DNA of 64,000 bases, taken from contig CAWGBN010000002.1 in NCBI GenBank assembly GCA_963820825.1, positions 320,001 to 384,000 of the forward strand. Direction: 5' to 3'. Of the stretch, positions 7,692 through 31,790 are shown in pieces. The position numbers and the translations under genes were made by a program. Under the pieces are notes generated by a model. That model saw only the letters and a list, made by a program, of their open reading frames with translations. It made no database searches and was not told the DNA's origin. How positions within the stretch are numbered: the stretch's first letter is position 1; each line of letters starts with the position of its first letter. Source of the stretch: Vulcanimicrobiota bacterium. GTDB taxonomy: Bacteria; Vulcanimicrobiota; Vulcanimicrobiia; Vulcanimicrobiales; Vulcanimicrobiaceae.

Positions 7692-7730
7692 CAAAGGCCC
7701 GTCTCTCGGACGGGCCTTTGTTATTGGCTC
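7692..7730. terminator. Hairpin terminator plus TTATTGGCTC; remnant of the tRNA-Asn 3' end/terminator unit (att remnant 1)
   Basis: 12-bp stem CAAAGGCCCGTC/GACGGGCCTTTG, similar to 31681-31720. Confidence 0.75.
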
Positions 7731-7926
7731 GCGGCGTCAGTCGAGCAGAATGCGGAAGCGCATCGACGAGTTGCCGCAACGGAAGACGCCACCGCCTCTG
7801 AGCGTTAATGCGTTAACGCGACAAATACGTTGAGTTAGATTTTCTGATTCGGCGCAATCTTCTCGTGACGAGCGCGGCCCTCCCGATGTAGAATCCATTT
7901 TGGATTCAGTCTCCGGGAGGTTTCTT

Positions 7927-9489
7927 ATGACGAAGGCCCATTTTACGCTGGGCTCGGTGGCGATTTTTTCCGCAACAATCCTTTATGCGTGCGGCGGGTC
8001 GCATTCGGTGTTGCCCACGAACGCGCAACAGGGCGATGCGCTCTCTGCGAAATACGCCAACCTTTCTCAAGACTCGGACGAAAACGATGGACGTTCGCCA
8101 TCAGAGCCGGCGACGGTGGTCGTCGATCCGTCGCAGGTCGGGCCGCCCGTGACGCGGCTCGTAGCCGGCGCGACGCTTCCGGCATGGTACAATCTAACGC
8201 TCTCGGGGATCGCGCAATCCATATCGGCGGCGAATCTGGCGATCACGCGTTTCCCGGCCGGAGCGCAAGTCGACATTTATAATTGGCAGAGCGGCACAGA
8301 TGGTCCCGCAGGAACGCCCTGCGCCGGTAACGCGAAGCCCCAGTCCAACATCGACACCTTTATGCGCGACATCGCTCTGCCATCGGGCACGCAGGTATCG
8401 CTCGGCGTCAACTACGGCAGCAACCCCCAATGCAACCGCGGGAATACGCCGACAAACGCCGCCGCCTTCGTGTCGCACGTCGTCAACACTTACGGTCCGA
8501 GCGTCGTCGCTTTTTGGGAACTCGGCAACGAGCAATACGCGCCAGGGAGTATCGACTGCCGTCAGCCTGGGTGTAAATCGTCGCGCGACCCCGATCAATT
8601 CGCCGCCAACGAACCCGCATTTTACGATGCAATGCGTGCTGCAGGAGCACGAAATATTTGCATACCCGCCGACGCGGCCAACTCAAAGAGCCCGTGGAAT
8701 CCGGTTGTCTTCTCCAAGGCAAAATTCGATTGCGCGAATATCATCTACTATCCGCAACGGGTCCACACCAGCGATTCCTTCCTACTCCATGACGCTATTC
8801 CGGAGCTCGGTGCAGAGATCGCTTTAGTGAAGGCGCAGTTGGCTGCTGCAAATCGTGCCAACACGCCGATCCTACTCTCGGCGGTCTCGTCGGCACTGGG
8901 ACCGTACGGCAAACAGAGCCAAAGCATTGTCGGTGCGCTCTTTGCCGATATGGCGATGGGAGAGGCACTCAACGATGGCGTGGCCGCGATGATCTGGCAC
9001 GCCGGTTTTGGCAGCTGCGACGCGCGCTCTCGCGGGGGCGACTTTGCGTCCAAGGTATACGGCTGGCAGAAGTATGGCGGAGCCATGATTTTCAGCGACG
9101 GCCCTGCCAACAACTGCCCGGTCACCACGCCGCGCGGCACGCTGCTCGCGACGGCGAACGCGTTTCTTACTGCTGCGAAGTTTATAAATACGGGCGGAAA
9201 CATGGTGAGCGTCACAGTAAGCGGGAATCCCGACGTGCGCGCCTATGCGTCGAATAAAATGATCATGCTTTTCAATCTGAGCGAGACTGCACGGGCATCG
9301 GTTAGCGTCACGATCAACGGCGTCAGCAGTGGCGCCGGCGGCCTGAGCGTTCACTATAGCAAACGGCTCTACGACAAGTCGAAAAAGGGCGTTTGGGCCT
9401 CGCCAAGTCTCACGACGTTGCCTCCCTGGAAGGGCTCAATACACCTTTGGTTACGGCGCTGGAGCGTGACTGTTGCGCCGTTAGAATGA
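7927..9489 (+). CDS. Clan GH-A glycoside hydrolase-like lipoprotein (arabinofuranosidase GH51/GH79-like)
   Basis: RFPAGAQVDIYNW, VNYGSN and FWELGNEQY motifs; lipobox LYAC; GGGAGG RBS. Confidence 0.7.
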   Translation: MTKAHFTLGSVAIFSATILYACGGSHSVLPTNAQQGDALSAKYANLSQDSDENDGRSPSEPATVVVDPSQVGPPVTRLVAGATLPAWYNLTLSGIAQSISAANLAITRFPAGAQVDIYNWQSGTDGPAGTPCAGNAKPQSNIDTFMRDIALPSGTQVSLGVNYGSNPQCNRGNTPTNAAAFVSHVVNTYGPSVVAFWELGNEQYAPGSIDCRQPGCKSSRDPDQFAANEPAFYDAMRAAGARNICIPADAANSKSPWNPVVFSKAKFDCANIIYYPQRVHTSDSFLLHDAIPELGAEIALVKAQLAAANRANTPILLSAVSSALGPYGKQSQSIVGALFADMAMGEALNDGVAAMIWHAGFGSCDARSRGGDFASKVYGWQKYGGAMIFSDGPANNCPVTTPRGTLLATANAFLTAAKFINTGGNMVSVTVSGNPDVRAYASNKMIMLFNLSETARASVSVTINGVSSGAGGLSVHYSKRLYDKSKKGVWASPSLTTLPPWKGSIHLWLRRWSVTVAPLE

Positions 9490-9533
9490 GAAGGGTGACA
9501 ACGTATCGACGACCCCGCACGGAATGGCCCTAA

Positions 9534-9598
9534 AAACGAAAAGACCGCCCCATCGTGGGCGGTCTTCGTTTCCTCTCCCGGATGCTGGACTCGAACCA
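9534..9598. repeat. att remnant 2: hairpin terminator plus 21-bp tRNA-Asn 3' fragment
   Basis: AAGACCGCCC/GGGCGGTCTT stem, then CCGGATGCTGGACTCGAACCA identical to 31720-31740. Confidence 0.85.
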
Positions 9599-9781
9599 CG
9601 CAACCGCCTAGGCCGTAAAGTTAGTAAAGCACATCACGGTGAGATACTAGAGACGCTCTCGCAGCGTGAGGGTTTGCGGCTTCCAGCGCCTTGCGAAGCG
9701 CAAGCGCACGAGCCCCTCACCTTCAATTTCAAGATGCCTTAACTAAACCGAAGCGTCCCTGGACTGTAGTCGCGTAGGCGA

Positions 9782-10795
9782 TTATTGAACCGCGATGCCG
9801 TACGGGTCGGAGAGTTTCGTTCGGTCGCCTTTGATCTTGTTGATCGGCGCAACCCTGCCGGTTGCTCCCATCGCGTACTCGGTAATCCAGCCGGAGCCCG
9901 CATTAGAAGCATAGATCTTTCCGTTTGCGTCGACCGCAATGCCGAAGGGCAAATTGAGCTTCGTCCGAACGCCTTTGATATATTGGGCGGGCCGCACATC
10001 GCCGTTGGACCCAGCGGGGTAAACGGAGACCGCGCCGGGCTGCGGATCGTAGTTTTCCACATAGATATTCGCGTTGGCATCGAGCGCGAGCCCTTCTGCG
10101 ACGGTGAGCTTCGTCCGCGAGCCGATGATCGTTCGCGCCGGAGCAACATCGCCGGTGCTTCCGGCTGCGAACATTAGCACGCGGCTATTTGCGTTTGCAC
10201 AGTAGATATTTCCGCTGGAATCCAAAGCGATGCCTAACGTGGTCTCGAGCATCGTATAGCGGCCGGCGATATCGACAGTTGGAGCGACGTTTCCGTTAGC
10301 GTTTGAGGGGTAGGCGGTAATGGTGTCATAGCCTACGACGTAAATGTCGCCATTGACTGGATTGAGCGTGATGCCCGTGGGGTGATCGAGCTGCGTATAG
10401 GAGCCAGCAATCGTCTGCACAGGCGAGACGTTGCCGGTTGCGCTGGCCGCGTAGACGGTAACGGAGTTGCTGCTCGCATTTGAGACGTACATGTTCCCGA
10501 AGGCGTCGACGGCTATTCCTGTCGGATCACTAAGATGGGTGTTGCCGCCCAAGACGAATTGAATCGGCGCCCTGTCTCCCTTAGCGCCCGAACCATAGAC
10601 GGTGATGGAGTTGCCGCCTGCGTTCGCAACGTAGAGGCAAGGACATGACCTGGTAGAGTGCTTGCCGTGCGAACTGCTTTGGGACGCGACCGGCGTGGCC
10701 GACGTGGCCGGCGTGGCCGAACCGCCGCTGCACGCGGCTAGGAGCGAGACCACCGACGCGGCGGCGATCGTGGATCGAGCATAAGAGAGTCGCAT
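9782..10795 (-). CDS. NHL-like beta-propeller lipoprotein (CPC family, paralogue 2)
   Basis: Lipobox LAAC, TRSCPCLYV, repeated GNVSP/GDVAP units; AGGAGG RBS before MRLSY. Confidence 0.85.
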   Translation of the reverse strand: MRLSYARSTIAAASVVSLLAACSGGSATPATSATPVASQSSSHGKHSTRSCPCLYVANAGGNSITVYGSGAKGDRAPIQFVLGGNTHLSDPTGIAVDAFGNMYVSNASSNSVTVYAASATGNVSPVQTIAGSYTQLDHPTGITLNPVNGDIYVVGYDTITAYPSNANGNVAPTVDIAGRYTMLETTLGIALDSSGNIYCANANSRVLMFAAGSTGDVAPARTIIGSRTKLTVAEGLALDANANIYVENYDPQPGAVSVYPAGSNGDVRPAQYIKGVRTKLNLPFGIAVDANGKIYASNAGSGWITEYAMGATGRVAPINKIKGDRTKLSDPYGIAVQ

Positions 10796-11046
10796 CGCTG
10801 ATCCTCCTTCTGGGGCAAGTCCCATATGGAAATGATCCTGCTAGAAGTTCGGAAGCGTAGGTCCTGGGTCCCATGAACCTTTGGTCATCGAGGTGAAATA
10901 ACACCTCGAACCTCACCAATGGACTAAGATGGAGCGTGCAAGAGAGGTGTCCCGCAAGCTCATGGCCCGCAGCAACGGCATGAAGGCAGGGCTCCAGCCC
11001 CATAGAACATGCCGCCCACCTGTTATCGGCTCGGAGGAAGGCAATA

Positions 11047-11460
11047 GTGGGCAGTTTTCGGCTAGCAACAGCCTTGGGATTCGGTATTACGTTTTTAGCG
11101 GGGTGTGGAACAAATCAACAGATCGATCCATCGCAGGCGACACACACGCAGAACGTTACGCGGGTAGGCTCGACAAAACCCGATAGTACAATTTATTGGG
11201 AACCGTCCAAGATAGTTTTAAAAGGCTCCGAGCATGATAACCCCGTGCTCTATCTTCCCACCGGTCATAAATGGGGCTTGGGCAATGACACCTGCGGCAC
11301 AAGGGTATTCGCAGCGACGATCAAGCAAGGAACCTCCGGGAGCCTTACATGGTACGAGTGGGATTTTCACGCCACAGCGTCGGGTCCGTTCCGGTGCGTC
11401 TACGTCGCCCATGATCGGGTCACAAAGGAGAATGGTAGGCTAATCGTCATCGCTCGATAA
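11047..11460 (+). CDS. Small hypothetical lipoprotein
   Basis: Signal peptide with LAGC lipobox; GGAGGAAGG upstream. Confidence 0.6.
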   Translation: MGSFRLATALGFGITFLAGCGTNQQIDPSQATHTQNVTRVGSTKPDSTIYWEPSKIVLKGSEHDNPVLYLPTGHKWGLGNDTCGTRVFAATIKQGTSGSLTWYEWDFHATASGPFRCVYVAHDRVTKENGRLIVIAR

Positions 11461-11555: not shown

Positions 11556-11603
11556 AACGGGCCTTTGTTTATTGGCTCCCACTGCTGGACTCGAACCAGC
11601 GAC
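11556..11603. repeat. att remnant 3: half terminator plus degenerate tRNA-Asn 3' fragment
   Basis: AACGGGCCTTTGTTTATTGGCTCCCACTGCTGGACTCGAACCAGCGAC aligns to 31698-31745. Confidence 0.85.
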
Positions 11604-11892
11604 GCGCAGGCAGGTGGCCGCTCGGTCGCTCAGAAAAGACTGGGCATAGGGACTGCGTGATTCGGTCCTGAGCTGACGCACTACACCTCAACCAGAACGT
11701 TCTCCAGAGCGGGTTTTCGCGTCCTAAAGAACGCGATGGAGGGTATTCTTATGTCAAAGCAACATTGTGCGCTCGCGCCGATCCTGTTTGCTCTATTGCT
11801 ACAAGCATGCGCGGGTCCAACCGGCGGCCTCGAGTCTACTTCGTCATCCCGAAACGCTTGGGGCGCTAATCAGATTCCGTCAACTTCTCAAA

Positions 11893-12005
11893 AATAAAGG
11901 CCCATTACGCAACGGGCCTTTATTCATTGGCCCCGGATGCTGGACTCGTTCTTCGACTCGCGCCTCCTGCGCTCTGCTCAGAATGACGGACCCGCTGATT
12001 AACAG
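11893..12005. repeat. att remnant 4: terminator plus tRNA-Asn 3' half interrupted by a 40-nt insert
   Basis: AATAAAGGCCC...GGGCCTTTATT, then TGGCCCCGGATGCTGGACTCG [insert] GACCCGCTGATTAACAG. Confidence 0.85.
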
Positions 12006-12025
12006 AAACTCAGCCATGGCGAGGT

Positions 12026-13048
12026 TTATTGAATCGCGATGCCTCCCGGGGAATCGAGCTTCGTCCTCGCGCCCTTAATCGTACGAATCGGCTCGACGTT
12101 GCCTCCGGTGCCGGGAGCATACACTGCTATGATGGGACCGCCGTTGACGACGTAGACGTTCTCGCTTGCATCGACTGCAACGCCGGCAGGATTGCTAAGC
12201 TTCGTTCTTCTGCCGTGGATTATCCAACTCGGCGCGACGTTCCCGTGCGCGCCGACTGGGAACGATGTAACGCAGTTGCAGAGCGCGCCTGCTGTGTAGA
12301 TGCTTCCGCCGCCCACGGCGACTTGCTCGTTATCGTAGAGACGCGTTCGGTGGCCGCCGATTGTTTGTATAGGAGCGACGTTGCCGGTCGCGCCGGCGGA
12401 GTAGACGGTGATGGTTTGGCTGTTGAAGTTGGGAACGTAGATATTGTTGCTCGTATCCAACGCGAGAGCGTACGGGACGTCGAGCCCGGTATTGGAGCCG
12501 GTGATCGTGTTGACCGGGGCGACGTTGCCGGTCGCGCCGGCGGAGTAGACGGTGATGGCCCCCTGCCCGCTTGGGCCACCAGCTCCGTTAGTGACGTAGA
12601 GGTTCTCTGATGAGTCCAGCGCAACGCCAATGATGTAGTTCATGGTGGTATTGGAGCCGGCGATTGTGCGGATCGGGCTGACGTTCCCGTTCGAGCCCGC
12701 GGCATAGACCGTGACGGAATCGTTGAACTCGCCGTTCACGTTGGCGACGTAGATGTTGCCGCTCGCATCGAGGCCGACATCGGTTGGATCGATCAGTCCC
12801 GTCCTACTGCCGCTGATCGTCTGTATCGGCTTGACGTTGCCGGTTGCGCCGATCGGATAGACGGTTACGGCGTTGCTTCCGGTATTCGCGACATACAGAC
12901 ACGGACACGGTGAGGTGCTCCTCTTTCCCATGAAGTGGTGCTGTTGAGGAACGGGGTCCGATGGGGATAGCGTATCGCTCATCCCGCCGCACGCGGCCAA
13001 GAGCGCTGCCGTAATGCACGCTCCCATCACGCTGCACAGATATCTCAT
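12026..13048 (-). CDS. NHL-like beta-propeller lipoprotein (CPC family, paralogue 3)
   Basis: Lipobox LAAC, STSPCPCLYV; exact 40-bp internal repeat at 12375-12414 and 12519-12558; AGGAGG RBS. Confidence 0.9.
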   Translation of the reverse strand: MRYLCSVMGACITAALLAACGGMSDTLSPSDPVPQQHHFMGKRSTSPCPCLYVANTGSNAVTVYPIGATGNVKPIQTISGSRTGLIDPTDVGLDASGNIYVANVNGEFNDSVTVYAAGSNGNVSPIRTIAGSNTTMNYIIGVALDSSENLYVTNGAGGPSGQGAITVYSAGATGNVAPVNTITGSNTGLDVPYALALDTSNNIYVPNFNSQTITVYSAGATGNVAPIQTIGGHRTRLYDNEQVAVGGGSIYTAGALCNCVTSFPVGAHGNVAPSWIIHGRRTKLSNPAGVAVDASENVYVVNGGPIIAVYAPGTGGNVEPIRTIKGARTKLDSPGGIAIQ

Positions 13049-13396: not shown

Positions 13397-13461
13397 CTTA
13401 GGCTGCACATTGCCGCACCAAGACAAAGGCCCGCTTCACGAACGGGCCTTCTGATTAACAG
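13397..13461. repeat. att remnant 5: arm repeats, terminator and anticodon-loop end, with the middle of the core deleted
   Basis: CTTAGGCTGCACATTGCCGCACCAAGACAAAGGCCCGCTTCACGAACGGGCCTT then CTGATTAACAG; aligns to 31652-31707 and 31749-31759. Confidence 0.85.
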
Positions 13462-13660
13462 CATCGCAAACTACGCACGCATCCGCTGCTGGGAGCGGCG
13501 AAGGCATGTGGCGACATTTGCCCACAGGAAGCCGTCGAGTAAACGTTGTGGATGGGCACCCGCGCCCGGGCAAAGGCGCTCGCCGGATAATCGCGAATCG
13601 CGCAAATGGCAGGAATCTCCGTCACGAAACACGAGACGCGGAGATTCAAGGGAGGCTTTT

Positions 13661-14860
13661 ATGCGATTGGAGCTTCGTCGTACGGCACTCCTATGCTGCT
13701 TGGTGGTCTCAGGGTGCTCGCACCCTTCGGGCTCGACGCCGGCGTTGCCGCCGAGCCTCGACCAGCGCGCGTTGGCGCGCACGACGGCGTTACCGGATAG
13801 CGCTTTTGATTCACTCTATTCGTTCGGCAAAAATCCCTACGATGGCAGCCAGCCCACGTTCCTCGTACCGTACAACGGGAAGCTCTACGGTACGACCTGC
13901 TGCGGCAGCCCTGGAGGTGAGGGCACCGTCTTCAGCCTCACGCCCGACGGCAAGGAGACGATTCTTCACACCTTTATGGGAAGCGACGGCGGCGTACCAA
14001 ATGGACCGCTGCTCAACGCCGGCGGGGTCTTTTATGGAACCGTCAGTTCGGGGGGAGGGCCGAGCAGTCTCGGCGCCGTGTTCAGCATCGACACCGACGG
14101 AAACTTCAACGTCGTCCGCGCGTTCCAAGGCGGCTCGAACGACGGCCTTCAGCCGTACGGCGGACTCGTCGAGTTAGACGGCACGCTCTACGGCACCACG
14201 CTCGGGGGCGGCGCTAATGGAGACGGCACCGTGTACGGCATCACCCCTCAAGGAGTCGAGCATCTGGTCCATTCGTTTAACGGTTCCGACGGCCAAGAGC
14301 CGCTTTCAACGCTGATCGTCGTCAACGGCGACCTGTACGGTACAACCCTTACCGGAGGCAAGTTCGGCGGCGGAACAATTTTTCGCGTTACCACCGCCGG
14401 CAAAGTGAAGGTGCTGCATAACTTTGGAAGAGGCAACGACGGCAACGCGCCATATTTCGGCGCGTTGGTCGACGTTGACGGCACGCTGGTCGGGACGACG
14501 ATTATGGGCGGCAGAAAAGGCGTCGGTACGATCTTCGAGAGCACTCTCGACGGCACGGAGAGCGTGCTCTATAGTTTTCCCGGTACGCCCGCAAAGGGCT
14601 GCGAGCCATACGCCGGACTCATCGAGTTCAACGGCACGCTGTATGGCACCACCGTCGGCGGATCGGGTCCGGGCTGCAGCGGCCACGGTACGGTGTATCA
14701 ATACGTGCCGAGCGGCGGTGTGATGACACTTCGCAAATTTCCCGGCGGGAACGGCGGCGCTGCCCCTGTCGGCTTGACGTCAATGGGTGGAAGTATTTAT
14801 GGAGTGACGCTTGGAGGCGGCCGTTACGGGCAAGGACTGTTTTATTCCGTGACTCCGTAG
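13661..14860 (+). CDS. GloVer-type choice-of-anchor repeat lipoprotein
   Basis: GGAGG RBS before MRLELRR; lipobox VSGC; repeated LYGTT..GG..G.GTVF units. Confidence 0.85.
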   Translation: MRLELRRTALLCCLVVSGCSHPSGSTPALPPSLDQRALARTTALPDSAFDSLYSFGKNPYDGSQPTFLVPYNGKLYGTTCCGSPGGEGTVFSLTPDGKETILHTFMGSDGGVPNGPLLNAGGVFYGTVSSGGGPSSLGAVFSIDTDGNFNVVRAFQGGSNDGLQPYGGLVELDGTLYGTTLGGGANGDGTVYGITPQGVEHLVHSFNGSDGQEPLSTLIVVNGDLYGTTLTGGKFGGGTIFRVTTAGKVKVLHNFGRGNDGNAPYFGALVDVDGTLVGTTIMGGRKGVGTIFESTLDGTESVLYSFPGTPAKGCEPYAGLIEFNGTLYGTTVGGSGPGCSGHGTVYQYVPSGGVMTLRKFPGGNGGAAPVGLTSMGGSIYGVTLGGGRYGQGLFYSVTP

Positions 14861-14902
14861 CGCTTTGAGCGGCCAGTACGAGTTCCGGCGCCCGGAAAGT
14901 GC

Positions 14903-17711
14903 TTAGAAGGCGAGGGCTGCCGCTACGGCTTGATCTTCGTTCCAGGCAGCGCCTTCAGCCATGAGCTTTGCAAGCTGGTCGTCGCCGAGCGCGTCGCGCA
15001 GTGCAGGGAGCATCTTATCGCGCTCTTGCCGTTCGGTGTGCTGCCGCAACGCTTCGATTCCATCCAAACGCGCATCGACGTAGCCTAGAAGCCGCGCAGC
15101 GCCGAGCCGATCGCCGCGCACGCGCTCCTCATCGTCGGCCCGGCGTAGCGCGGCGGTCGCTGCGAGATGCTGCAGACCCCATAATACGCCGGCCTCCCAT
15201 TGCGTGTCGCGTGCGGCTGCGAGCCCATCTCGGGCGGAAACGCGAGCGTCGTCGTAGCGTTCGAGCGCAGATCAGGTATGCCGCAAGTGTTGCACAGCGA
15301 AATCGCTGCGCCGAGTTTATGATTGAAGGTGCGATAGGTTGCGAGTGCCTCGTTCTCCAGTCGAAGGGCCTCGACGGCATTGCCCTCGTGAAACTCGGCT
15401 TCGGCTAGATTTCCCGCAATGTGCGAGCATACGCGCTCTGCGCCAACGGAGCGGAACATCGCCAATGCCTCGGCAAAGAGCGGCCGCGCTCCAGCCAGGT
15501 CGCCGGCGTGGTTGCGTGCGACCGCAATGCTTTGCAAGATATCTGCGATAACGCTGCGCACTCCAACTGCTCGCGCCTCCTTCAGCGCCGAGGCCAGCAT
15601 GTTCTCGCCTTCTTCGATGTCGCCGAGATCGACGAGCGCGCGGCCGAGGAGGTGTCGGGCCTGCGCAACGCGCAGGGGATCGTCAAGCTCGCTGTAGAGC
15701 GCCAGGGCGCGTTCTGCTCGCTCGCGAGCCGTCTTCCGTTGAGCGAGTGCGTAGCGATCGCCGCTTCGGCACAGATCGAGTGCGGCCTCGACCGAGGCCG
15801 GCATCGCGGTCGGCGGAGAGATCACGCGCGGCCCGAATCCACCGCTGTCCTTCCGCCGCAGCGAAGCGCGTCCACACCGGCCGGAGCGCCGCCGCCAGCC
15901 GTCGGCCGAGCAGCACGTCGCCCTGCGCTCCGAAGCGCCCAGGTGAGCGCCGCTCGGAAGTTCTCCAGCTCCGGCTCGGCGCGAGCAAGCCACGCGCGCT
16001 CGGGCGTCGTTTCAAAAATGCTATAGAGTTCTTCGCCGAGCGCGAGAATTGCAGCCGCGTGCAGCCGCGCGACGGCGGCATCCTCTCCCGCCTCGGCGAG
16101 GCGTTCGCGCCCATACTGCCGCATCGACTCGAGGAGCCGATAGCGCATTCCGCCTTCCGTTTCTTCCGCATGCACCAACGACTTGTCGACGAGCGACGAG
16201 AGCAGGTCGAGGATCTTCCCACGACTCGATTGCGTCTTCTGCGGCTTGGCTCGTCGGCGCTAACGGCGCCGGCCGTTTCGAGCGTCCACCCTCCGACGAA
16301 GATCGCCAGCCGCCGGAACAGCCTCTGCTCGTTCGGTGAGAGCAGATCGTAGCTCCAGTCTATCAGCGCGCGCATCGTCTGCTGACGCGGCACCGCCGTG
16401 CGGCTGCCCGCCGGTCAGCACGCGAAAACGCTCGTCGAGTTTCCGAGCCAGTTGTCGCGGCGCCAACACCTTTATTCGAGCCGCCGCCAGTTCGATCGCC
16501 AGCGCGATGCCGTCGAGGCGCCGGCAGATCTCCGCAACGGTTGGTGCGCTTTCATCGCTTCAACTCGAACTTCGCGTCGGATGCAGCGGCGCGCTGCGCA
16601 AAGAGCGCGACGGCCCCATAGCGCAGAGCGTCTTCCGCCGTGAGCCCATCGCTTTGCGCCGGAAAAGCCAGCGACGGCATGTGATAAACGTGCTCGCCGC
16701 CGATGCGCAGCGGCTCACGGCTGGTCGCCATTAACCGCACGCCGGGAGCGCCGCGCAAGATCGTATTCGCGATCTTTGCGACCTCGTCGATCACGTGCTC
16801 GCAGTTGTCGAGAAGTAGCAGCAGATTCTTGCTCTCCAGATAGCGCAGGAGGGTCTCGAGCACGGGACGTCCCGGCTGCTCGTGCAAACCCAGCGCCGTC
16901 GCGATCGTGCTCGGCGACCAGACTCGCATCGTTCGTCGATGCCAGCTCGACGAACCACACGCCATCGCCCGAACGATCGAGCAAATCCGCACCGACTTGG
17001 AGTGCGACGCGCGTCTTACCCACGCCGCCGGTGCCGACGAGCGTCACCAAGGCGTGCTCACGTATCAGCCGCTCGACCTCGGCCAGCACCTCGTCACGCC
17101 CAATGAGCGACGTAAGCTGACGCGGCAGGTTGTTCGGCATCGATTGGAGCGACCGCAGCGGTGGAAACGTTTGGGCTAGGCCCGGAGCGACGAGTTGCCA
17201 AACGCGCTCCGGTTGGGCGAGATCCGCAAGCCTGTGCTCGCCCAAATCGCACAACTCCGACGCGTTCGGGCATTAGACCGCGCAACAGCAACGCGGTTGC
17301 GCCGGAGAAGAGGACTTGGCCGCCGTGCGCCGTCGCTAACAGCCGTGCCACACGGTTCACGACCGGCCCAAAGTAGTCGCCGTCGCGCTCGTCGGTCGCG
17401 CCGCTGTGCAGGGCCATGCGAACCTGTAGGCCACCGATTGCGCTCCAATCCTCGTCTGAGAGTTCACGCTGCGCATCGATTGCCGCGGCAACTGCATCCG
17501 TCGCACGCCAGAACGCCGCGCAACACGCATCACCGACCGTCTTGAACACGTGACCGCCGTGCCTTTCGATCGCGGCGCGCAGCAGTTCGTCGTGGCGGCG
17601 CAACGCTGGCGCCATCGCGTCGCGTCGCTCTTCCCAACGCCGCGTGCTTCCCTCGATGTCGGTAAAGAGCAGCGTTACCGTCCCCGTCGGAATTGGAGCC
17701 GCCCGTGCCAT
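14903..17711 (-). CDS. Class III adenylate/guanylate cyclase + NB-ARC-like ATPase + TPR protein (multiple frameshifts)
   Basis: [29 protein letters not shown], Walker [34 protein letters not shown] and TPR-like C-terminus across frames. Confidence 0.85.
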
Positions 17712-18218: not shown

Positions 18219-18265
18219 GGACGGTTGCTCTACGGTCGCTCTACGGCGCGCACTCGGCAGGAGAG

Positions 18266-23374: not shown

Positions 23375-23890
23375 CGTTGCACACCAAGGGCCTGTCCACG
23401 TTCCGGGCTTGCGCTATCGTTGCGCAGCCCTACCGATCGCTGTTCAACAAGAAAAAGGCTGAAAAGCGCGCAGACACGCGGCTGAAGGAATGCATCGGCA
23501 AACATGCGCAGCAGCGGCCGCGGTTCGGCTGGCGCCGGCTGTTGATCCTTGCGCGCCGTGAAATACCTGGCACCGGGGAGTACCGATTTCGAAGGCTTTA
23601 TAAGGCTCTTGGGCTTCAAGTACGGCCTCGAAAGAAGCGCAAGGTCAACTACGTCCGCGGAAACGCGATTTCGACCGTTAGTCGCCCCAACGAACGGTGG
23701 TCGATCGACTTCATGCACGACAGTCTTGGGAACGGCCGGGCCTACCGTACGATGAACATCGTTGACGACTTCACGAGCGAATGCCTCGCTTTGGAGCCGG
23801 CGTTCTCGTTTGGTTCTCATGATGTGACGCGTTGCTTCGAGGAGATCGCGTTCGAACGCGGCTTGCCGGCCGCCGTGCGTTTTGACAACG
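23371..23890 (+). pseudogene. IS3-family transposase OrfB, 5' part (interrupted)
   Basis: RPNERWSIDFMHD...IVDDFTSECLA...VRFDN, broken at the DNG motif. Confidence 0.88.
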
Positions 23891-25446
23891 AGCTAAGTAC
23901 GAAAGTCAACCCCACTAGTAGGCATAACGATGCCCGTCGACAGCAAAGCCGAGCTTGCACACCCTTGCCGAGATGCCCCTCGACGACGCAATAGCTCCAA
24001 CCATGATGACACAAGGTCTCGGAAACGAGCCTTCACCGAGCTCAAAACGGAGTTTGCTGCCGATCGGGAGATCCGAGCATTATCTACGAGGTCGTAGTCG
24101 CCTCAACGGCCCAGCGAAGGGATTCTCCCGTCGTGCACCGCCGCTTCGAAATAGTGGCGGTACTCTTTTCCAGATTTGATCAAGCCGTAAGCGACGCGCG
24201 CAATCTTCGCTGCTACGGCGACATACGCTCTTCTTTTGAGATCGGCATCCAGTGGATCGCGACGAACGTAGTCGTCGTACTTTTTCCGAAACGAGTTTCG
24301 GCGCTGATTGATGGCAGCATTGGCTGCCATCCAGAAGGCCCATCGCAGTCGAGCATTGCCGCGTTTGGAGAGCTGCGGTCGGCCGCGTGACGTTCCGGAT
24401 TGCATCGTCGACAAAGAAAGGCCACAGTAGTTAAGAAATTTGCGATGGTGGCTGAAGCGGCGTAAATCTCCGCCTTCAGCGAGAACCGTTAGAGCAACAA
24501 TAGGGCCGATTCCAGGGATAGAGCGCAGGCGCTGATAATCGATGTTGTTCTCGAGTTGTGCGTCAATGAGCTCCTGAAGCTGCCGTCGAAGCTTCATGAG
24601 GCCGATGTACTGCTCAATCGCGAGTTGGAACATCTGGGCGGCCTGCGAATCCGCCGCCACTGGAATTCCCACGCTTTCCTTGGCAATTTCGTAGTAGCTG
24701 GCGACGAGACTTTGCCGAGATGTAAAATGCCCTCCCGCTGCAGTAAACCTTTTGACGAATGTCCTTTTGGTATATTGAAGGACCGTGGAAGGGCATGGCG
24801 CTATGCGCATGACCTCCAAGAACCACTCGCCGCGCGGATTGCTCAGGAAGGGCTCTGCTTCCGGGAAGTACAGCGGCAAATAGTGCGTCATCAGCGAATG
24901 GTAGGCTCGCGTCTTTCGGTCGGTGATCTGCCGATAGGTACCGAGCAGTTCCTGAAGATCTTGGTTGCCACGTTGCAGTGGATCGGCGAACACCTGCGTT
25001 GTACCGCTCTTGAGCAAATGCAGAATCACCTGCGCATCCTTCGGATCGTTTTTATCCCACGAGTTGAACAGCGCTTCTCTCGTCCGATTTGTAGCGATCG
25101 ACGATACGAAATGAACGCGGTGGCCTCGCCGGAGCAAGAAGTTCGCCAGGGGTCGGTGATAGTCTCCGGTTGGTTCCAGCGCGACCTCGCAGGGAAGATG
25201 CGGCGCCAGAATCCCTGCCAACTCGTCGAAACCTTCTTGCGTGTTTGGAACTGTCAAACGCCGGCGAATGCCGGCCTCGTCCTCCAGCAGCGCCACGTGT
25301 CGGTTTTTGGCGACGTCGATTGCGAGCCAGGCGGGCGTCGTTGGAGCAGCACGGAACTTTGCCATAGGGTCGTTGCCTCCAGCGGAGATGAGTCAGATAC
25401 ACCTCCGTTCGCCATGGGGGCAGCGCCCCGTCTTGTATGTATCACG
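23891..25446 (-). mobile_element. IS110-family element (long non-coding end downstream of the transposase)
   Basis: Removing it restores GAC AAC GGC CCA GAG TTT (DNGPEF) of the host orfB; ACG present at both junctions. Confidence 0.9.
24103..25365 (-). CDS. IS110-family DEDD transposase/recombinase
   Basis: AIDVAK, LEPTGDYH, KNDPKDA, SIPGIG, QSG and SKRGNARLR motifs; intact 420 aa. Confidence 0.95.
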   Translation of the reverse strand: MAKFRAAPTTPAWLAIDVAKNRHVALLEDEAGIRRRLTVPNTQEGFDELAGILAPHLPCEVALEPTGDYHRPLANFLLRRGHRVHFVSSIATNRTREALFNSWDKNDPKDAQVILHLLKSGTTQVFADPLQRGNQDLQELLGTYRQITDRKTRAYHSLMTHYLPLYFPEAEPFLSNPRGEWFLEVMRIAPCPSTVLQYTKRTFVKRFTAAGGHFTSRQSLVASYYEIAKESVGIPVAADSQAAQMFQLAIEQYIGLMKLRRQLQELIDAQLENNIDYQRLRSIPGIGPIVALTVLAEGGDLRRFSHHRKFLNYCGLSLSTMQSGTSRGRPQLSKRGNARLRWAFWMAANAAINQRRNSFRKKYDDYVRRDPLDADLKRRAYVAVAAKIARVAYGLIKSGKEYRHYFEAAVHDGRIPSLGR

Positions 25447-25523
25447 GCCCAGAGTTTACGAGTCGCGCGATGCTGCAATGGGGTGCAGAGCAGAAAGTCC
25501 ATCTACACTTCATCGAACCCGGC

Positions 25524-26890
25524 GATTACGTCCCGGCGCGTGGTGTATGAACTGCGACCCCGACGAAGTGGGCGATCAGCTGATAACGGCCGAAAGCCTG
25601 GCGATCTGATTGTCGCTTACGGCGTTCATTCCTTCGAGCTGCATGTACCGCCGCTGCAACTGCCATTCATCGTTCTGTTCCAGCAGCAGCGCACCGACGA
25701 GTCGTACGATCGCGGCCTCGTTGGGAAAGATGCCGACGACGTCAGTCCGGCGTTTGATCTCGGCGTTGATGCGCTCGAGCGGGTTGGTTGAAGCGAGTTG
25801 TTTGCGGTGGGCTTTGGGAAAGGCCATGAAGGCGAGAACGTCTTCTTCGGAATCGTCCAACATCGCTGAGAGCTTGGGAAACTTCTCGCGGAGTTGATCG
25901 GCGACGGTGCGCCATTGTTGGTGCGCCGCCTCGGCCGTTTCTTGAGCGAACACCGTATTGATCAGCGCACGAACCATTTCTCGCTGCCCTTTGCCGGCGT
26001 GGGCTAGCGCGTTGCGCATGAAGTGCACGCGGCAGCGCTGCCACGTCGCCTTGAAGACTTTGGCGATCGCGGCTTTGAGACCGATGTGGCGAATCGGAGA
26101 TCACGAACTTGACGCCACGCAGTCCGCGCCGTCTCAGGCTTCTGAGAAACTCGCGTCCAGAACGGCTCGGCTTCGCTGGGACCCGTCGCCAAGCCTAAAA
26201 GCTCGCGCGTACCGTCGGTATTGACGCCAACGGCCAGTATTACGGCGACCGAAACGATGCGGCCCGACGCGCGCACTTTCACGTACGTCGCGTCGATCCA
26301 CAGATACGGCCAGTCGCCCTCGATCGGCCGATTGAGAAACGCTTGCACGCGCTCGTCGATCTCGCTGCACAAGCGCGAGACTGGCTCTTGGAGATCCCCG
26401 TCATCCCCAGTGCCTTCACCAGTTCGTCAACCGAGCGGGTTGAGATGCCCTGAATATACGCTTCCTGGATCACCGCCGTCAGCGCTTTCTCGGCCGTGCG
26501 ACGAGGCTCCAGGAAGCCAGGGAAATAGCTGCCCTTGCGCAGCTTAGGGATGCGCAGATCGACTGCGCCGGTGCGCGTTTCCCAGAGCCGGTCGCGATAC
26601 CCGTTGCGGCAGTTCTCGCGAGGAGCGGCTCGCTCGCCATAGGCGGCGCCGCAGAGGGCCTCCACGTCCATCTCCATGAGTTTCTGGGCGGCGAGATGAA
26701 GCATGTCGCGCACGAGATCGACGTCGGGGCCCTTTTCAGCGAGCTCCGTAAGTGCGATACTGGTCTTGGCCATTGTGGGTTCCTTTCGTCGGTAGTTTCT
26801 TTGCAAAAACAACCTTCGCCGAAAGCCACGATGGCCGCTCTCTATCCTATGAGGGCGGCCCCTTCATACACCACGCCCTGGGACACGATC
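25524..26890 (-). mobile_element. IS256-family element
   Basis: Imperfect 28-bp IRs ending GCGTGGTGTATGAA; 8-bp TSD AACCCGGC at 25516-25523 and 26891-26898. Confidence 0.93.
25576..26773 (-). CDS. IS256-family transposase (frameshifted)
   Basis: [28 protein letters not shown] and [16 protein letters not shown] motifs in three frames. Confidence 0.9.
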
Positions 26891-27074
26891 AACCCGGCAA
26901 ACCAACGCAAAACGCCAAGATCGAATCGCTAAACGGCCCGATCCGAGACGAGCTGCTCAATGCCCACGTTTCACGACGATCTAAACGAGGCGCGGGCGCT
27001 TGCCGCAGTTGGAGAAAGGACTATAACGAGGTCCGGCCGCACTCGTCTCTCGGCGGCTTGACGCCGCTGGAGTA

Positions 27075-28344
27075 AGAGGTGGCCTCGGTTAGTCGGACAG
27101 CCTGATATGTGATGATTTCGCTCCCTCTGGGTCGAAAAGATCCGTGAAAAGGAGCAGTCATCTTGAAACGTTCTCGCCGCAACCACACGCCGGCCTTCAA
27201 GGCTAAGGTGGCGATCGCCGCGATCAAGGGCGATCAGACCGTCGCCGAGCTCGCCAAGCGCTTCGACGTCCATCCGAATTCGATCGTGCAGTGGAAAACC
27301 CAACTGCTCGAGCGAGCCGATGAAGCCTTCGATGGCGACGGACCAAAGCAGAACGGCCCCGATATCAAAGAGCTTCACGCCAAGATCGGCCAGTTAGCGC
27401 TGGAGAACGATTTTTTAGAACACGCGCTCGGACGTATCGACGGGTCGAGCGCAAAGCGATGATCGATCGCGACCACGCTTTGCCGCTCTCGCATCAAGCG
27501 GAGCTGCTGGACCTCTCTCGCAGCGGTCTTTACTACGGAGCCGTACCGGTCTCGGGCAGCGGATCTCGAACTCATGCGTGAGATCGATCGGCTGCACACC
27601 GACTACCCGTTCGCCGGCGCAAGAATGCTGCGCGACTTCCTGCGGCTCAGGGGCTATCGTGTCGGCCGCCGGCATATCGCGCGGCTGATGCGCCTGATGG
27701 GCATTGAAGCGCTCTATCGCAAGAAGAAAGGCACCAAGACCAATCCGGAGCACCCCGTCTTCCCCTACCTTCTTAGAAACCTCGTCATCGAACGCCCGAA
27801 TCACGTCTGGGCAGCGGATATCTCGTACATTCCGATGCGCCGCGGTTTCTTGTATTTGTTCGCGGTACTCGACTGGGCAACGCGACGGGTTCTGGCTTGG
27901 CGGCTCTCCAACAGCTTGACGACGGATTTCTGCATCGATGCCGTCGAGGAGGCGATCGCAAAGTACGGCTGTCCTGAAATCTTCAACACCGATCAAGGAT
28001 GCCAATTCACCGACAAGGATTTCGTCGGCATGCTCAAGACTACGAGATCGCGATCAGCATGGACGGCCGGGGCGCCTGGCGCGACAACGTCTTCGTCGAA
28101 CGCTTCTGGCGCTCGATTAAGTACGAAGAGGTCTATTTGCGTGCTTACGACTCTGCGAGCGAGGGTAAGCACTTCATCGGCCGCTACGATCGATTCTATA
28201 ACGCAAACCGACCGCATTCGTCGCTCGGCGGCCAAACGCCGGACGCGGTATACTTCAGTCAGGCCGACCAAAAAGGCGGCGTAACTGGCGGAGTCATCAC
28301 ATAACGGGTGCCGATTTCGTGTCCAAAAAACCGGCGCCACCTCT
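27075..28344 (+). mobile_element. Second IS3-family element (orfA 27163-27462, orfB ~27459-28284)
   Basis: IRs AGAGGTGGC..CGGTT....GGACA; 3-bp TSD GTA at 27072-27074 and 28345-28347; RPNHVWAADISYIPM, FNTDQG and DNVFVERFWRSIKYE motifs. Confidence 0.92.
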
Positions 28345-28739: not shown

Positions 28740-29720
28740 GTGCGATTTCATCTGCTAGCCAGCCTGGTTATCGCCGCAGCATTTGCCGGATGCTCGAGCG
28801 CGCAACTACAACGCGGAAACCCGGCGCTGCCGAGTTCGCCGTCAAAAAGCGTGCCGGCCGCCATCGGGCCGACGCCCGCGCCCATAGCGACGGCAAGTTG
28901 GGAGGACAGCATCTTTGTGGTCGACACCGGTGTCCCCGCCGTCAAGCTCTTTGCGCGCGGAACGTGGGCAGCCAATGGATCGTTCACCAATGGTGTGGCC
29001 AGTCCGTACGGCATCTGGAGTGATCAGAAATATCTCTACGTACCGAACAGTATCAACAATGGCGCGAACGTAGAGGAGTATCGCCCCGACGATACGACTC
29101 CAATTTTTACCTATACGAACGGCCTCTCGGGCAACGCGATTAATGTTTCGACTCAGGACCTTGGCGGGGTTCACTACGTGTTCGTCGTCGTTGGCAGTAC
29201 CGGCTTCGGTAACGGCTACGTTCGGCAGTTTCGTCGTGACACGAATACGGTCATAGCGACGTGCACGCCTAACGGCCAGGGGCAGTTTGGAGTTGCTGGC
29301 GTTGCGGTCGACCCCAACGGCAACGTATTTGTTTCGTACTACGGCTCCGACAGCTCTACGCACATTGTCGAGTACGTTGGGGGCCTGGGCGGATGCGCTC
29401 AAACTCCGCTGATCACGCTACCGACAGAGGGAGCAGATATGGTTCTAGATCATGCCGGTAGGCTGGTCCTTTGCGACGGTGTAAGCACCTGCGACATCAT
29501 CAATCCGCCGTATACGAGCATATCAGGGACGCTCGGCTCCGGCTTCGATGCTCCATTTTATGTTACGATAAATGCAACTAACCAACTCGCCTACGTGACC
29601 GACGGCTTAGGCGTTCACGTCCTCAGCTATCCCAGCGGCGCGCCGCTACATACAATCGGTGCTTCTGCTGGCCTACATAATCCCGTCGGCGTCGTAGATT
29701 GGTTCAACTACGGTTTTTGA
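28740..29720 (+). CDS. Secreted beta-propeller lipoprotein
   Basis: AGGAG RBS, lipobox FAGC; paralogue of 30446-31471. Confidence 0.8.
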   Translation: MRFHLLASLVIAAAFAGCSSAQLQRGNPALPSSPSKSVPAAIGPTPAPIATASWEDSIFVVDTGVPAVKLFARGTWAANGSFTNGVASPYGIWSDQKYLYVPNSINNGANVEEYRPDDTTPIFTYTNGLSGNAINVSTQDLGGVHYVFVVVGSTGFGNGYVRQFRRDTNTVIATCTPNGQGQFGVAGVAVDPNGNVFVSYYGSDSSTHIVEYVGGLGGCAQTPLITLPTEGADMVLDHAGRLVLCDGVSTCDIINPPYTSISGTLGSGFDAPFYVTINATNQLAYVTDGLGVHVLSYPSGAPLHTIGASAGLHNPVGVVDWFNYGF

Positions 29721-30082
29721 TCCGCCGCGGCCGTTTGCGTTGGCCAATCGAACTCGGGGCAGGCAACAATGCTGCTCCAAATGCTCTGCCGCGGCAACAC
29801 CGGCGCGCGCGAACCAAACCCGGAAGTGAGCGACGTGGAAGCGCCGCGCGACCAGAAGTGTTTCAACGTGCGCGCCCGTAGCCTCAAACTGTATAGAGCA
29901 GGGACTCCTAAAGCCTTAGAGCGTAGCCGTGCGTAGTCGCCGACGGTGCAAAAGCCCGTAAAGTACCCGCTTTTTCGGACGCCACCGGCAGCGCTGACGC
30001 CTTAGGGGCCTTAGGGCAACCAACCAGTCGCGTCGAACATCTTAGGGCGCTGATCCGTTCCGGGAGCTAGGAGGCACGGCCC

Positions 30083-30367
30083 ATGAGAAGGTTCGCACTC
30101 AATCGCTTCGCTCTAACCATGATCGTCGCGGGTGCATTCCTCGCGAGCTGCGACGGATCGCAACCGCAGATCGGCGCACCTGGCGCGACGAACCTGCCCA
30201 TTGTCAATCGTGAGCGAAAGCGTTCCCGAACGTTGAGCTATTCGGGAAGCCCACAAAGCTTCAACGTGCCGTTCGCGCGCTGGTACCCGTATCTCCACCT
30301 ATTTCCGGCGGCGTCAGTGCTGCCGGCGCTCGCCGCTGCCAGAGGCGAAGTCTTTATTATTTCTTGA
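30083..30367 (+). pseudogene. Truncated lipoprotein (signal peptide and N-terminus only)
   Basis: AGGAGG RBS, LASCDGSQPQIGAPGA start, then degenerates. Confidence 0.45.
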
Positions 30368-30445
30368 CTATTGTGAGGTAGCTTTAGCTGTTAAGCAAAC
30401 AGGCGCCATTTAGGCCCCGACGCTAGCTTCTATCGGGAGTGGCTC

Positions 30446-31471
30446 ATGCGATTTCATCGGACACTTCTGACCGCGACGATCGGGGCCATGCTGATCGCTG
30501 CGTGCACGAACGCGCAGTCTGAGATAGGTAGCTCGACGTTGCCTCGCTCGCCCGTACGTGTCGGGCCGGACGCGCCCGGGCCAACGCCGGCACCGCTGGC
30601 AACAGCGAGCTGGGAGCAGAGCCTCTTCATTAACGACGTCGTGACCGTGAACAACGGTGTGTGCAGCACCTCTTGTCCGACCAAGCTCTTCAAGAACGGT
30701 ACCTGGACTGCTAACGGATCTTTCAACACCAGCGGATACCCCATGGGCCTCTGGAGCGATCAGAAATATTTGTACGTCCCCAACTTCGTTAACGCGACCA
30801 CCGCAAGTGTAAACGAGTATCGCCCCAACGATCCTTCACCGATCTTCTCCTATTCGAACGGTTTGACATTCGTCACATCTGTGTCGACCCAGCTGCTGGG
30901 GAACGTACATTACGTGTTCGTTACGGGAGGATACAACACGAACTACGAGGCGAACTTCGTTCAGCAGTACCAGCGGGACACAAACACGATTATTGCCACG
31001 TGCTACCCCCATGGCAACGTAAATCTCATGGGCGTCGCCGTCGCTCCTAACGGAAACGTATTCGTCGACTACAACGACAGTCTCGACGTCGGGCACCTCG
31101 TCGAGTACGTCGGGGGCCTGGCCGGATGTAACGCAACGCCGTTGCCGATGACCTTCCTGGGACATGTGACCGGGATAGCGCTCGACAACGCCGGAAGGCT
31201 CTTGATTTGCAACACTCACGGTGCGGCGGCCATCGACGTCATCGACCCGCCGTATACCAGCATATCCGGAACGCTTGGCTCGGGCTTCATGTTCCCGGAT
31301 TCCATCTCGATCAATGCAAACAATAACCTTGCCTTCGTTGCCGATGGGCTCCTTGAGCAAGTCAGAGTGCTCCAATACCCAAGCGGCGCACTCGTTCAGA
31401 CGATTGGTACCGCCAATGGGTTGAACGGGCCGCGCGGTGGCGCCGTGGAGTGGGTCAACTACGGCTTTTAG
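30446..31471 (+). CDS. Secreted beta-propeller lipoprotein
   Basis: Lipobox IAAC; shares GPTPAP.ATASWE, WSDQKYLYVPN and C-terminal W.NYGF with 28740-29720. Confidence 0.8.
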   Translation: MRFHRTLLTATIGAMLIAACTNAQSEIGSSTLPRSPVRVGPDAPGPTPAPLATASWEQSLFINDVVTVNNGVCSTSCPTKLFKNGTWTANGSFNTSGYPMGLWSDQKYLYVPNFVNATTASVNEYRPNDPSPIFSYSNGLTFVTSVSTQLLGNVHYVFVTGGYNTNYEANFVQQYQRDTNTIIATCYPHGNVNLMGVAVAPNGNVFVDYNDSLDVGHLVEYVGGLAGCNATPLPMTFLGHVTGIALDNAGRLLICNTHGAAAIDVIDPPYTSISGTLGSGFMFPDSISINANNNLAFVADGLLEQVRVLQYPSGALVQTIGTANGLNGPRGGAVEWVNYGF

Positions 31472-31649
31472 TCGGTCTACGGCTTAACCAGCTCGAACGA
31501 AATCGTCGTGCCTGTAGAGAGCGCCGGCAACAGCGGCAGCGGCGTATACGGCGACGTGCCGGCGCCGATGCCGATCGGCGAATGCTTCTGTTCCATCGGA
31601 TTCGATCTAATAGCGCTCTGGCTGGACCGGCCGAGTTCCAATCTTGGCT

Positions 31650-31677
31650 GACTTAGGCTGCACATGGCTGCACCCAA
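31650..31677. repeat. Arm-type tandem repeat (AGGCTGCAC-A-TGGCTGCAC) at the tRNA-proximal junction
   Basis: 28 bp identical to 20300-20327. Confidence 0.85.
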
Positions 31678-31680
31678 GAC

Positions 31681-31710
31681 AAAAGGCCCGCTTCGTAAAC
31701 GGGCCTTTGT
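31681..31710 (-). terminator. Intrinsic terminator of tRNA-Asn
   Basis: AAAGGCCCG/CGGGCCTTT stem immediately after the CCA end, followed by a T-run on the minus strand. Confidence 0.85.
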
Positions 31711-31714
31711 TTAA

Positions 31715-31790
31715 TGGCTCCGGATGCTGGACTCGAACCAGCGACCCGCTGATTAACAGTCAGCTGCTCTACCAACTGAGCTAATCCGGA
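31715..31790 (-). tRNA. tRNA-Asn(GTT)
   Basis: 76 nt, TCCGGAT...AGCTCAGTTGGTAGAGC...CTGTTAA...GGTTCGAGTCC...ATCCGGAGCCA; canonical cloverleaf with encoded CCA. Confidence 0.97.

What the first reader, a model, noticed from the sequence alone, without database searches (positions are those of the whole stretch)
7692..31790. tRNA-Asn-anchored tandem cassette array: an integron-like library of surface lipoprotein genes built from att sites
Seen in sequence: seven same-orientation copies or remnants of the tRNA-Asn 3' half and/or its terminator lie downstream of the intact tRNA, at ~7692, 9534, 11556, 11893, 13397, 18266 and 20300. Four of them end exactly at TTAACAG, the reverse complement of the anticodon loop. 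The two nearest the tRNA are a perfect 42 bp; the more distant ones are truncated or mutated. The intervening modules are mostly 0.3-5 kb and usually carry 1-2 intact genes, nearly all secreted lipoproteins, with no replication, conjugation or phage genes. Established: tyrosine integrases often cross over in the 7-nt anticodon loop, restore the tRNA 3' end, and leave attP-like junctions between tandem islands. Inference: non-autonomous mini-cassettes are added one by one at the tRNA by an integrase acting in trans, giving an age-ordered array functionally like an integron but without attC or intI.
Basis: partly seen in the sequence, partly recalled or inferred. Interest (0 to 1): 0.9.

Follow-up and report, generated by a model that had tools for sequence, protein, structure and literature searches.

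The report
Stacked decayed islands behind tRNA-Asn
Behind an asparagine tRNA gene, this bacterium keeps a row of shrunken mobile elements that inserted one after another and lost their insertion enzymes but kept surface-protein genes; this is a known way for genomic islands to grow, though some small modules may still be moved by a visiting helper element.

Summary
The seven tRNA-Asn 3'-half/hairpin remnants are real and are att junctions. The modules are best read as shrunken integrative elements (CIMEs), not integron cassettes. Modules 1 and 2 carry the same arm sites as a complete 17.1-kb element in G084 that encodes an integrase, a Rep-like protein, an Xis-like protein, a resolvase and about nine lipoprotein-like genes. 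In relatives, 7 of 19 att-bounded modules hold a full integrase, 1 a stub and 11 none. No IntI and no cognate integrase was found in this 85%-complete genome. Re-mobilisation remains open: genes of modules 2 and 4 are 93-94% identical to G065 against about 80.5% genome-wide. A better candidate for the trans-cassette model is this genome's tRNA-SeC array. The scan has noted similar arrays on other DNA. Verdict: new member of a known kind.

The parts
31715..31790 (-). Intact tRNA-Asn(GTT); attB target, core = anticodon loop (31753-31759)
31653..31714 (-). tRNA-side end of module 1: terminator-like hairpin and A-type P' arm pair
28740..31471 (+). Module 1 cargo: two paralogous lipoprotein genes (28740-29720, 30446-31471) and a short lipoprotein-like ORF (30083-30367)
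23006..28344 (.). IS cluster inside module 1: IS3-type, IS110 (copies elsewhere at 97-99.9%), IS256/Mutator-type, second IS3-type
20614..22542 (-). Module 1 cargo: GloVer-repeat propeller ORF (21394-22542, no lipobox in this reading) and a truncated NHL-like ORF (20614-21189)
20297..20535 (-). Junction 1/2: A-type P arm (20433-20535), core, perfect 42-nt tRNA 3' half (20391-20432), hairpin, A-type P' arm (20303-20323)
18643..20000 (+). Module 2 cargo: NHL-repeat lipoprotein (about 18930-20000) and CtaG fragment (18643-18918); 94% identical to G065
18227..18463 (-). Junction 2/3: A-type P arm (18361-18463), core, perfect 42-nt 3' half (18319-18360), hairpin, B-type arm pair (18227-18246)
18021..18218 (+). 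C-terminal 65 residues of a tyrosine integrase, 72% identical to the complete tRNA-Asn island integrase of G017
13485..17782 (.). Module 3 cargo: GloVer-repeat lipoprotein (13661-14860 +) and a frameshifted cyclase/NTPase/TPR gene (about 14880-17711 -) that relatives keep on the other side of the tRNA
13397..13461 (-). Junction 3/4: core plus 4 nt, 3' half deleted, hairpin, degenerate A-type P' arm
12026..13048 (-). Module 4 cargo: NHL-repeat lipoprotein; 93% identical to G065, with the same junction next to the core
11896..12005 (-). Junction 4/5: 3' half split by a ~40-nt insert, hairpin; no arm recognised
11556..11607 (-). Junction 5/6: mutated 3' half and half hairpin; module 5 (11608-11895) is a ~0.3-kb remnant
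9782..11460 (.). Module 6 cargo: NHL-repeat lipoprotein (9782-10825 -) and small lipoprotein (11047-11460 +)
9534..9607 (-). Junction 6/7: truncated 3' half and a different hairpin
7927..9489 (+). Module 7 cargo: 520-aa exported, probably lipoprotein gene with no family hit; 80% homolog about 20 kb behind tRNA-Asn in G096, where no att remnant was found
7692..7729 (-). Last remnant: hairpin plus 6 nt of the tRNA end, directly after the stop codon of the convergent gene 6578-7690

Best explanation
The array is a tandem-accretion island. Integrative elements of several families, each with its own tyrosine integrase, recombine at the 7-nt anticodon loop of tRNA-Asn. Each brings a new tRNA 3' half, a hairpin and a P' arm, and pushes the previous end outward (anatomy shown; order of events inferred). 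The integrase and replication block is then deleted and the cargo, mostly lipoprotein genes, stays (shown for module 3; inferred for modules 1 and 2 from G084; only assumed for modules 4-7). Modules 1 and 2 keep both arms and a perfect core, so they are CIMEs that a visiting A-type element could excise or carry along (inferred, not observed). Older junctions lose arms and core; the hairpin lasts longest, probably because it also ends transcription of convergent cargo genes (inferred).
For: Module 3 integrase tail 72% identical to G017's complete tRNA-Asn integrase, with related arms. G084's 17.1-kb element has A-type arms at both ends (P' 3 of 22 mismatches; P arm 74-76% identical over ~103 nt) and encodes a 402-aa integrase 3.3 kb inside, Rep-like, Xis-like and resolvase genes and about nine lipoprotein-like ORFs; one internal deletion would give modules 1 or 2 with no integrase stub. 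Relatives of that integrase (49-57% identical) are followed by similar arm pairs. Ten full integrases sit at tRNA-Asn in 8 of 58 relatives examined. 18 of 92 post-att segments hit an integrase C-terminal HMM: 6 are full genes used to build the HMM and 12 are stubs, mostly cut at different points; 0 of 300 controls hit. G085's 1.9-kb module shares its right 426 bp (76%) with G017's integrase-bearing element. The same three-step path is described for CIMEs (PMC5704250, passages) and for Prochlorococcus islands (bioRxiv 2020.12.28.424599, passages).
Against: Only 1 of 7 modules here has an integrase remnant, and only one complete A-type element was found (G084). 11 of 19 att-bounded modules in relatives have no integrase trace, 10 of them 4.1 kb or less. 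A 1.3-kb integrase-less first module is 90% identical between G065 and G071, whose flanking core is 75% identical. The module 3 stub and the stub in metagenome contig L127 start at the same residue yet carry different cargo. At tRNA-SeC, 27 of 30 modules lack any integrase hit and one module recurs across distant species, so units without an integrase do seem to travel in this genus.
Confidence: 0.63

Rival explanations
1. Helper-driven cassette system. Small integrase-less modules are themselves the mobile units. A rare autonomous element (G084-type at tRNA-Asn; a 62-kb ICE at tRNA-SeC) supplies integrase and excisionase in trans, and modules are added one at a time.
For: Modules 1 and 2 have complete arms, a perfect core and 90% identical P arms. 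Module sizes are bimodal: 7-17 kb with integrase, mostly 0.8-4 kb without. G065 and G071 share a whole 1.3-kb module at 90% against 75% core. At tRNA-SeC a BKACE/FMN-reductase/CMD module is 92% identical over 3285 bp between G074 and G081 (core 75%) and 91% over 2895 bp between G092 and G102 (core 75%), with different neighbours; the cognate integrase lies on an ICE in other genomes.
Against: No cognate integrase in this genome (best 29%; genome 85% complete). None of the 26 att-bounded tRNA-Asn modules recurs full-length at another position. G065 holds modules 2 and 4 in the same order with collapsed att sites, which fits block transfer or inheritance. Module 1 has gathered four IS elements. 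An integrase stub and a complete parent element exist. Several arm families are mixed, so no single recombinase serves the array.
Confidence: 0.27
2. The att remnants are inert scars, and cargo moves mainly by homologous or homology-anchored recombination between Cybelea lineages, using the tRNA, junction repeats and lipoprotein repeats as anchors.
For: Genes of modules 2 and 4 (93-94%) and the module 3 cyclase (90-92%) are all far above the G000-G065 average of 80.5%, yet the cyclase lies 60 kb away from the tRNA in G065. The small module 6 gene has an 88% match in G065 on another contig with no tRNA nearby. One flanking core gene is as close at 4-fold sites (0.15) as the module genes.
Against: It does not explain why junctions fall exactly at the anticodon loop or why both arms are kept. 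It can only explain later exchange, not how the array was built.
Confidence: 0.1

Closest known systems
CIMEs and site-specific tandem accretion (ICESt1/ICESt3 family; reviewed in PMC5704250, passages read)
   Same: Elements that have lost integration and transfer genes but keep attL and attR, stacked by later integrations at the same site, including between distantly related integrases.
   Different: Seven junctions rather than two or three. The parent of the A-type modules (G084) showed no relaxase or conjugation gene among the ORFs scanned. Cargo is mainly lipoproteins. Cis-mobilisation is untested here.
Dehalococcoides ssrA genomic islands (PMC3146451, passages read)
   Same: Many direct repeats behind one RNA gene; some islands with and 15 without an integration module; cargo dominated by one paralogous family; distal parts fixed.
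   Different: tmRNA T-loop and a serine recombinase there; tRNA-Asn anticodon loop and several tyrosine integrase families here.
Tycheposons of Prochlorococcus (bioRxiv 2020.12.28.424599, passages read)
   Same: tRNA-targeting tyrosine-integrase elements with excisionase, replication and small serine recombinase genes plus cargo; newcomers push older ones outward, leaving integrase fragments and partial tRNAs.
   Different: Different phylum; homology to tycheposon hallmark profiles was not tested; transfer route unknown here.
Tandem tDNA islands (Islander, PMC4383910, passages read)
   Same: tRNA plus displaced 3' fragment; anticodon-centred site (2083 of 3919 islands).
   Different: Islander requires an integrase in each member (125 tandems of 2 or more, 4 of 3 or more), so this array would be filtered out.
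Integrons and CALINs
   Same: Ordered row of small gene units at one entry site, newest nearest.
   Different: No IntI; junctions are double-stranded att sites with a tRNA core and direct-repeat arms; units lie in both orientations, several have long upstream regions, and some hold several genes or IS elements.

Membership tests
Integron | IntI-family integrase | tested here: not met
   TIGR02249: best 67 bits against a cut-off of 265 in the own genome, which is 85% complete; G084 integrase 25 bits
Integron | attC hairpin sites closing each cassette | tested here: inconclusive
   No attC model was available. The junctions are explained as tRNA 3' half, terminator-like hairpin and direct-repeat arms; Rfam finds only the tRNA
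Integron | Promoterless single-ORF cassettes in one orientation read from Pc | tested here: not met
   Cargo lies on both strands; modules span 0.3-11.3 kb with 0 to several genes and IS elements. Promoters were not mapped; the sigma-70 scan was at chance level
CIME / tandem accretion | Retains attL and attR | tested here: met
   Modules 1 and 2 have P' and P arms and perfect cores; modules 3-7 only in part
CIME / tandem accretion | Lacks integration and transfer genes | tested here: met
   No full integrase, relaxase or T4SS hit among the ORFs scanned; one stub in module 3
CIME / tandem accretion | Derived from an autonomous element | tested here: met
   Met for module 3 (stub) and, by shared arms and cargo type, for modules 1-2 (G084); not shown for modules 4-7
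CIME / tandem accretion | Mobilised in cis by an adjacent element | not testable with these tools
   No reads of this strain were found; only indirect identity evidence
IME / MGI (mobilisable in trans by conjugation) | Own integrase plus relaxase or oriT | tested here: not met
   No full integrase or relaxase in the modules; oriT was not searched
Tycheposon-like element (parent in G084) | tRNA-targeting tyrosine integrase with Xis, replication and small serine recombinase genes plus cargo | tested here: met
   PF00589, HTH_17/phrog_66, HTH_36/replication-initiator PHROGs, Resolvase
Tycheposon-like element (parent in G084) | Homology to the published hallmark gene profiles | not tested

The most novel reading that the evidence does not exclude
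Ca. Cybelea runs tRNA-anchored cassette libraries. Integrase-less modules of 1-10 kb with complete arm sites move between species as units, served by rare autonomous helpers: a 17-kb lipoprotein-carrying element at tRNA-Asn and a 62-kb ICE at tRNA-SeC. At tRNA-SeC one conserved 45-bp junction occurs in 43 of 91 genomes, up to five times each, and one module recurs at 91-92% between genomes only 75% alike. Functionally this would be an integron-like library built from lambda-type att sites.
Probability: 0.33. Interest if true: 0.72.

Novelty: new member of a known kind. Interest (0 to 1): 0.4.

Why it matters
As it stands, this is an unusually well-preserved record of island accretion and decay in a poorly known phylum. 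The complete parent element, integrase stubs and bare modules can all be seen across relatives, which helps explain how these genomes gather many lipoprotein genes. It also pairs specific integrases with their arm sites, which makes the open question testable: do integrase-less modules move on their own when a helper passes through? If they do, most clearly at tRNA-SeC, a class of cassette exchange invisible to integrase-based island finders would be operating across a whole genus.

Tried and rejected
Viral-contig scan for the arm pair: 14 loci, none followed by the tRNA-Asn core. Metagenome scan for the P arm: 9 loci, 2 real (L127, L128), both short, 7 unrelated. Genome-collection scan for the P' arm: 6 loci; the two titled outside Eremiobacterota/Cybelea were not examined. 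Sequencing runs: one holder with a 0.07 share, contigs only; its pieces follow the G065 pattern, so it is not independent and cannot show excision; the 20433-to-11556 joint (31-nt side) is read as a repeat artefact. Search for a cognate integrase in the own genome: best 29% to the A-type and 30-31% to the SeC-type integrase; a weak hit on C8 was viewed but not resolved. Promoter and terminator scan: counts at or near chance. The idea that lipoproteins are special to this array was rejected. Frameshifts were not used as evidence of decay, because a housekeeping gene (metK, 34354-35871) is also broken and single-base indels appear against X1 contigs. Dropped rows: one 10-bit plus-strand hit (G102a); C-terminal HMM hits lying on tRNA-SeC itself, an artefact of one training sequence reading through that tRNA. 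Literature searches listed no paper on islands or lipoprotein arrays in Eremiobacterota, but searches were loose and only the top 10-20 listings were seen, so this is weak. No supplements were read.
Full report
OBSERVATION. The window is G000:C2:320001-384000. Records carrying the same arm motif are titled Eremiobacterota or Ca. Cybelea, which I take as the likely taxon. tRNA-Asn(GTT) lies at 31715-31790 on the minus strand. Two are perfect 42-mers starting at the anticodon loop, four end at TTAACAG, and match quality falls with distance, though not strictly (scores 42, 42, 11, 19, 27, 22, 6). None of 100 shuffles reaches the observed counts.

JUNCTION ANATOMY. Read in the tRNA's direction, a full junction is: P arm (a direct-repeat pair about 100 nt from the core), 7-nt core, tRNA 3' half, hairpin, P' arm pair. 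The other integrases of this genome show a similar repeat pair after their stop codons. Anticodon-centred crossover is a standard class of tRNA att site (PMC4383910, passages). Modules 1 (11.3 kb) and 2 (2.1 kb) have A-type (TGCAGCC) arms at both ends, with P arms 90% identical. Module 3 starts with a different, B-type pair. Module 4 has a degenerate A-type P'. No arms were recognised in modules 5-7.

Directly behind the B-type arms lies the C-terminal 65 residues of a tyrosine integrase (18021-18218), 72% identical to the complete integrase of a 7.4-kb tRNA-Asn island in G017. Module 1 contains about 5.3 kb of IS sequence. Module 3's cyclase/NTPase/TPR gene is single-copy here, but 13 of the 16 near-full-length hits at 78% or better lie 37-88 kb upstream of tRNA-Asn on the same contig in relatives; the other 3 are on other contigs. 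So module 3 carries a gene that is normally resident elsewhere.

RELATIVES. 80 of 91 genus genomes match the tRNA 3' half and 22 have two or more copies, by my tally of the table; in two of these both copies are whole tRNA genes. I fetched 3-60 kb around 66 such sites in 58 relatives. Ten full integrases of several families sit at this tRNA in 8 genomes. An integrase C-terminal HMM hits 18 of 92 post-att segments: 6 full genes (used in training) and 12 stubs; 0 of 300 control segments hit. Of 19 att-bounded modules in relatives, 7 have a full integrase (7.4-17.1 kb), 1 a stub and 11 none. With seven junctions, this array is the deepest seen, but relatives were read over shorter spans.

THE PARENT OF THE A-TYPE MODULES. 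G084's second element (17.1 kb) has A-type arms at both ends. It encodes an IS256, AbiJ-like and DUF4238 genes, a 402-aa integrase 3.3 kb from the tRNA-side end, Rep-like, Xis-like and resolvase genes, and about nine lipoprotein-like ORFs next to the P arm. Because the integrase is internal, deleting the mobility block would leave P'-cargo-P with no stub, as in modules 1 and 2. Relatives of this integrase are followed by similar arm pairs. No close homolog exists in G000 (best 29%; 85% complete), and no IntI.

SIGNS OF RECENT MOVEMENT. Genes of modules 2 and 4 occur in the same order behind tRNA-Asn in G065 at 94.5% and 92.8%. The genome-wide average is 80.5%, from 243 of 400 1-kb fragments that aligned, and only 1 reached 92%. 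Four-fold-site differences are 0.10-0.15 against 0.15-0.50 for eight flanking genes; a ninth had no hit. In G065 the att sites around these genes have collapsed and module 3 is absent. A 1.3-kb integrase-less module is 90% identical between G065 and G071, whose core is 75% alike. These facts show exchange between species but not its route: block transfer in cis, excision in trans and homologous recombination all fit. No module among 26 recurs full-length at another position at tRNA-Asn. No reads of this strain were available.

A STRONGER CASE ELSEWHERE IN THE GENOME. At tRNA-SeC (C6:467130) an integrase-bearing island is followed by three integrase-less modules closed by one conserved arm type. 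The 45-bp junction occurs in 43 of 91 genomes, up to five times. In 11 genomes chosen for having several copies, 27 of 30 modules have no integrase hit, 1 has a full one and 2 have stubs. A three-gene module is 92% identical between G074 and G081 and 91% between G092 and G102, pairs that are 75% alike in core DNA. The cognate integrase lies on a 62-kb ICE with relaxase and T4SS genes in G022.

MECHANISM. Shown: att anatomy, several integrase families at this site, one integrase stub, and a complete parent with matching arms and similar cargo. Inferred: serial integration, deletion of mobility genes, survival of hairpins beside convergent genes (7690/7692, 9489/9534), and re-mobilisation of modules that keep both arms. 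I put 0.63 on accretion and decay, 0.27 on a helper-driven cassette system and 0.10 on recombination as the main mover. The first two overlap, since CIMEs can be mobilised.

COMPARISON. The three-step path is that described for CIMEs (PMC5704250, passages). Dehalococcoides ssrA islands show the same mix of islands with and without integration modules and one dominant cargo family (PMC3146451, passages). Prochlorococcus islands show elements pushed outward, fragmented integrases and partial tRNAs (bioRxiv 2020.12.28.424599, passages). The array works somewhat like an integron in being an ordered store of small genes, but it is not one; integron features are given from recall. Earlier notes of this scan describe similar arrays in other phyla; these are unchecked and were not used as support.

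VERDICT. Observation confirmed; interpretation partly supported; new member of a known kind; interest 0.40. The novel reading, a genus-wide helper-driven cassette exchange best seen at tRNA-SeC, has probability about 0.33.

Noticed in passing
G000:C6:467130-498007 (outside the window); L196-L215; L246-L249: tRNA-SeC array: an integrase-bearing 13.3-kb island, then three integrase-less modules (4.4, 5.0, 8.1 kb) closed by a conserved arm and a 45-bp imperfect palindrome. The junction occurs in 43 of 91 genus genomes; 27 of 30 modules examined lack an integrase hit; one module is shared at 91-92% between genomes 75% alike; the cognate integrase sits on a 62-kb ICE in G022. It deserves its own study.
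   Followed up: partly
G000:C4:22771-22815: A fourth SeC-type junction on the 24-kb contig C4, with degenerate arms; possibly the continuation of the SeC array.
   Followed up: partly
G000 C6:691205-700616, C9:130244-138117, C5:168153-169281, C2:207545-211241: Further duplicated tRNA pieces near tRNA-Ala(CGC), tRNA-Ser(TGA; 5' halves), tRNA-Val(GAC) and tRNA-Val(CAC).
   Followed up: no
window 18021-18218 and L127:360-560: The integrase stubs of module 3 and of metagenome contig L127 begin at the same residue (about 340 of the G017 integrase) at 80% nucleotide identity, behind the same A/B junction type but with a different hairpin and different cargo.
   Followed up: partly
window 11949-11988; G022 and G048 junctions: Inserts of about 40-70 nt interrupt the tRNA 3' half at junctions in three genomes and look like short REP-like elements.
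   Followed up: no
window 13485-17782: The cyclase/NTPase/TPR gene is 81-90% identical across many species, above the core identity where both were measured, which suggests frequent exchange; it is missing from its usual position near C2:403556 here.
   Followed up: partly
window 34354-35871: metK is frameshifted in the assembly, so single-base errors are likely.
   Followed up: no
L054:1087-14205 (G084 first element): A 13-kb element at tRNA-Asn with integrase, primase-like zinc finger, AAA helicase and terminase RNaseH-like domain, resembling a phage satellite.
   Followed up: no
genome-wide: About 237 lipobox-bearing ORFs by a crude scan, many with NHL or GloVer propeller repeats; the densest cluster is on C8 near 325-375 kb.
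   Followed up: no
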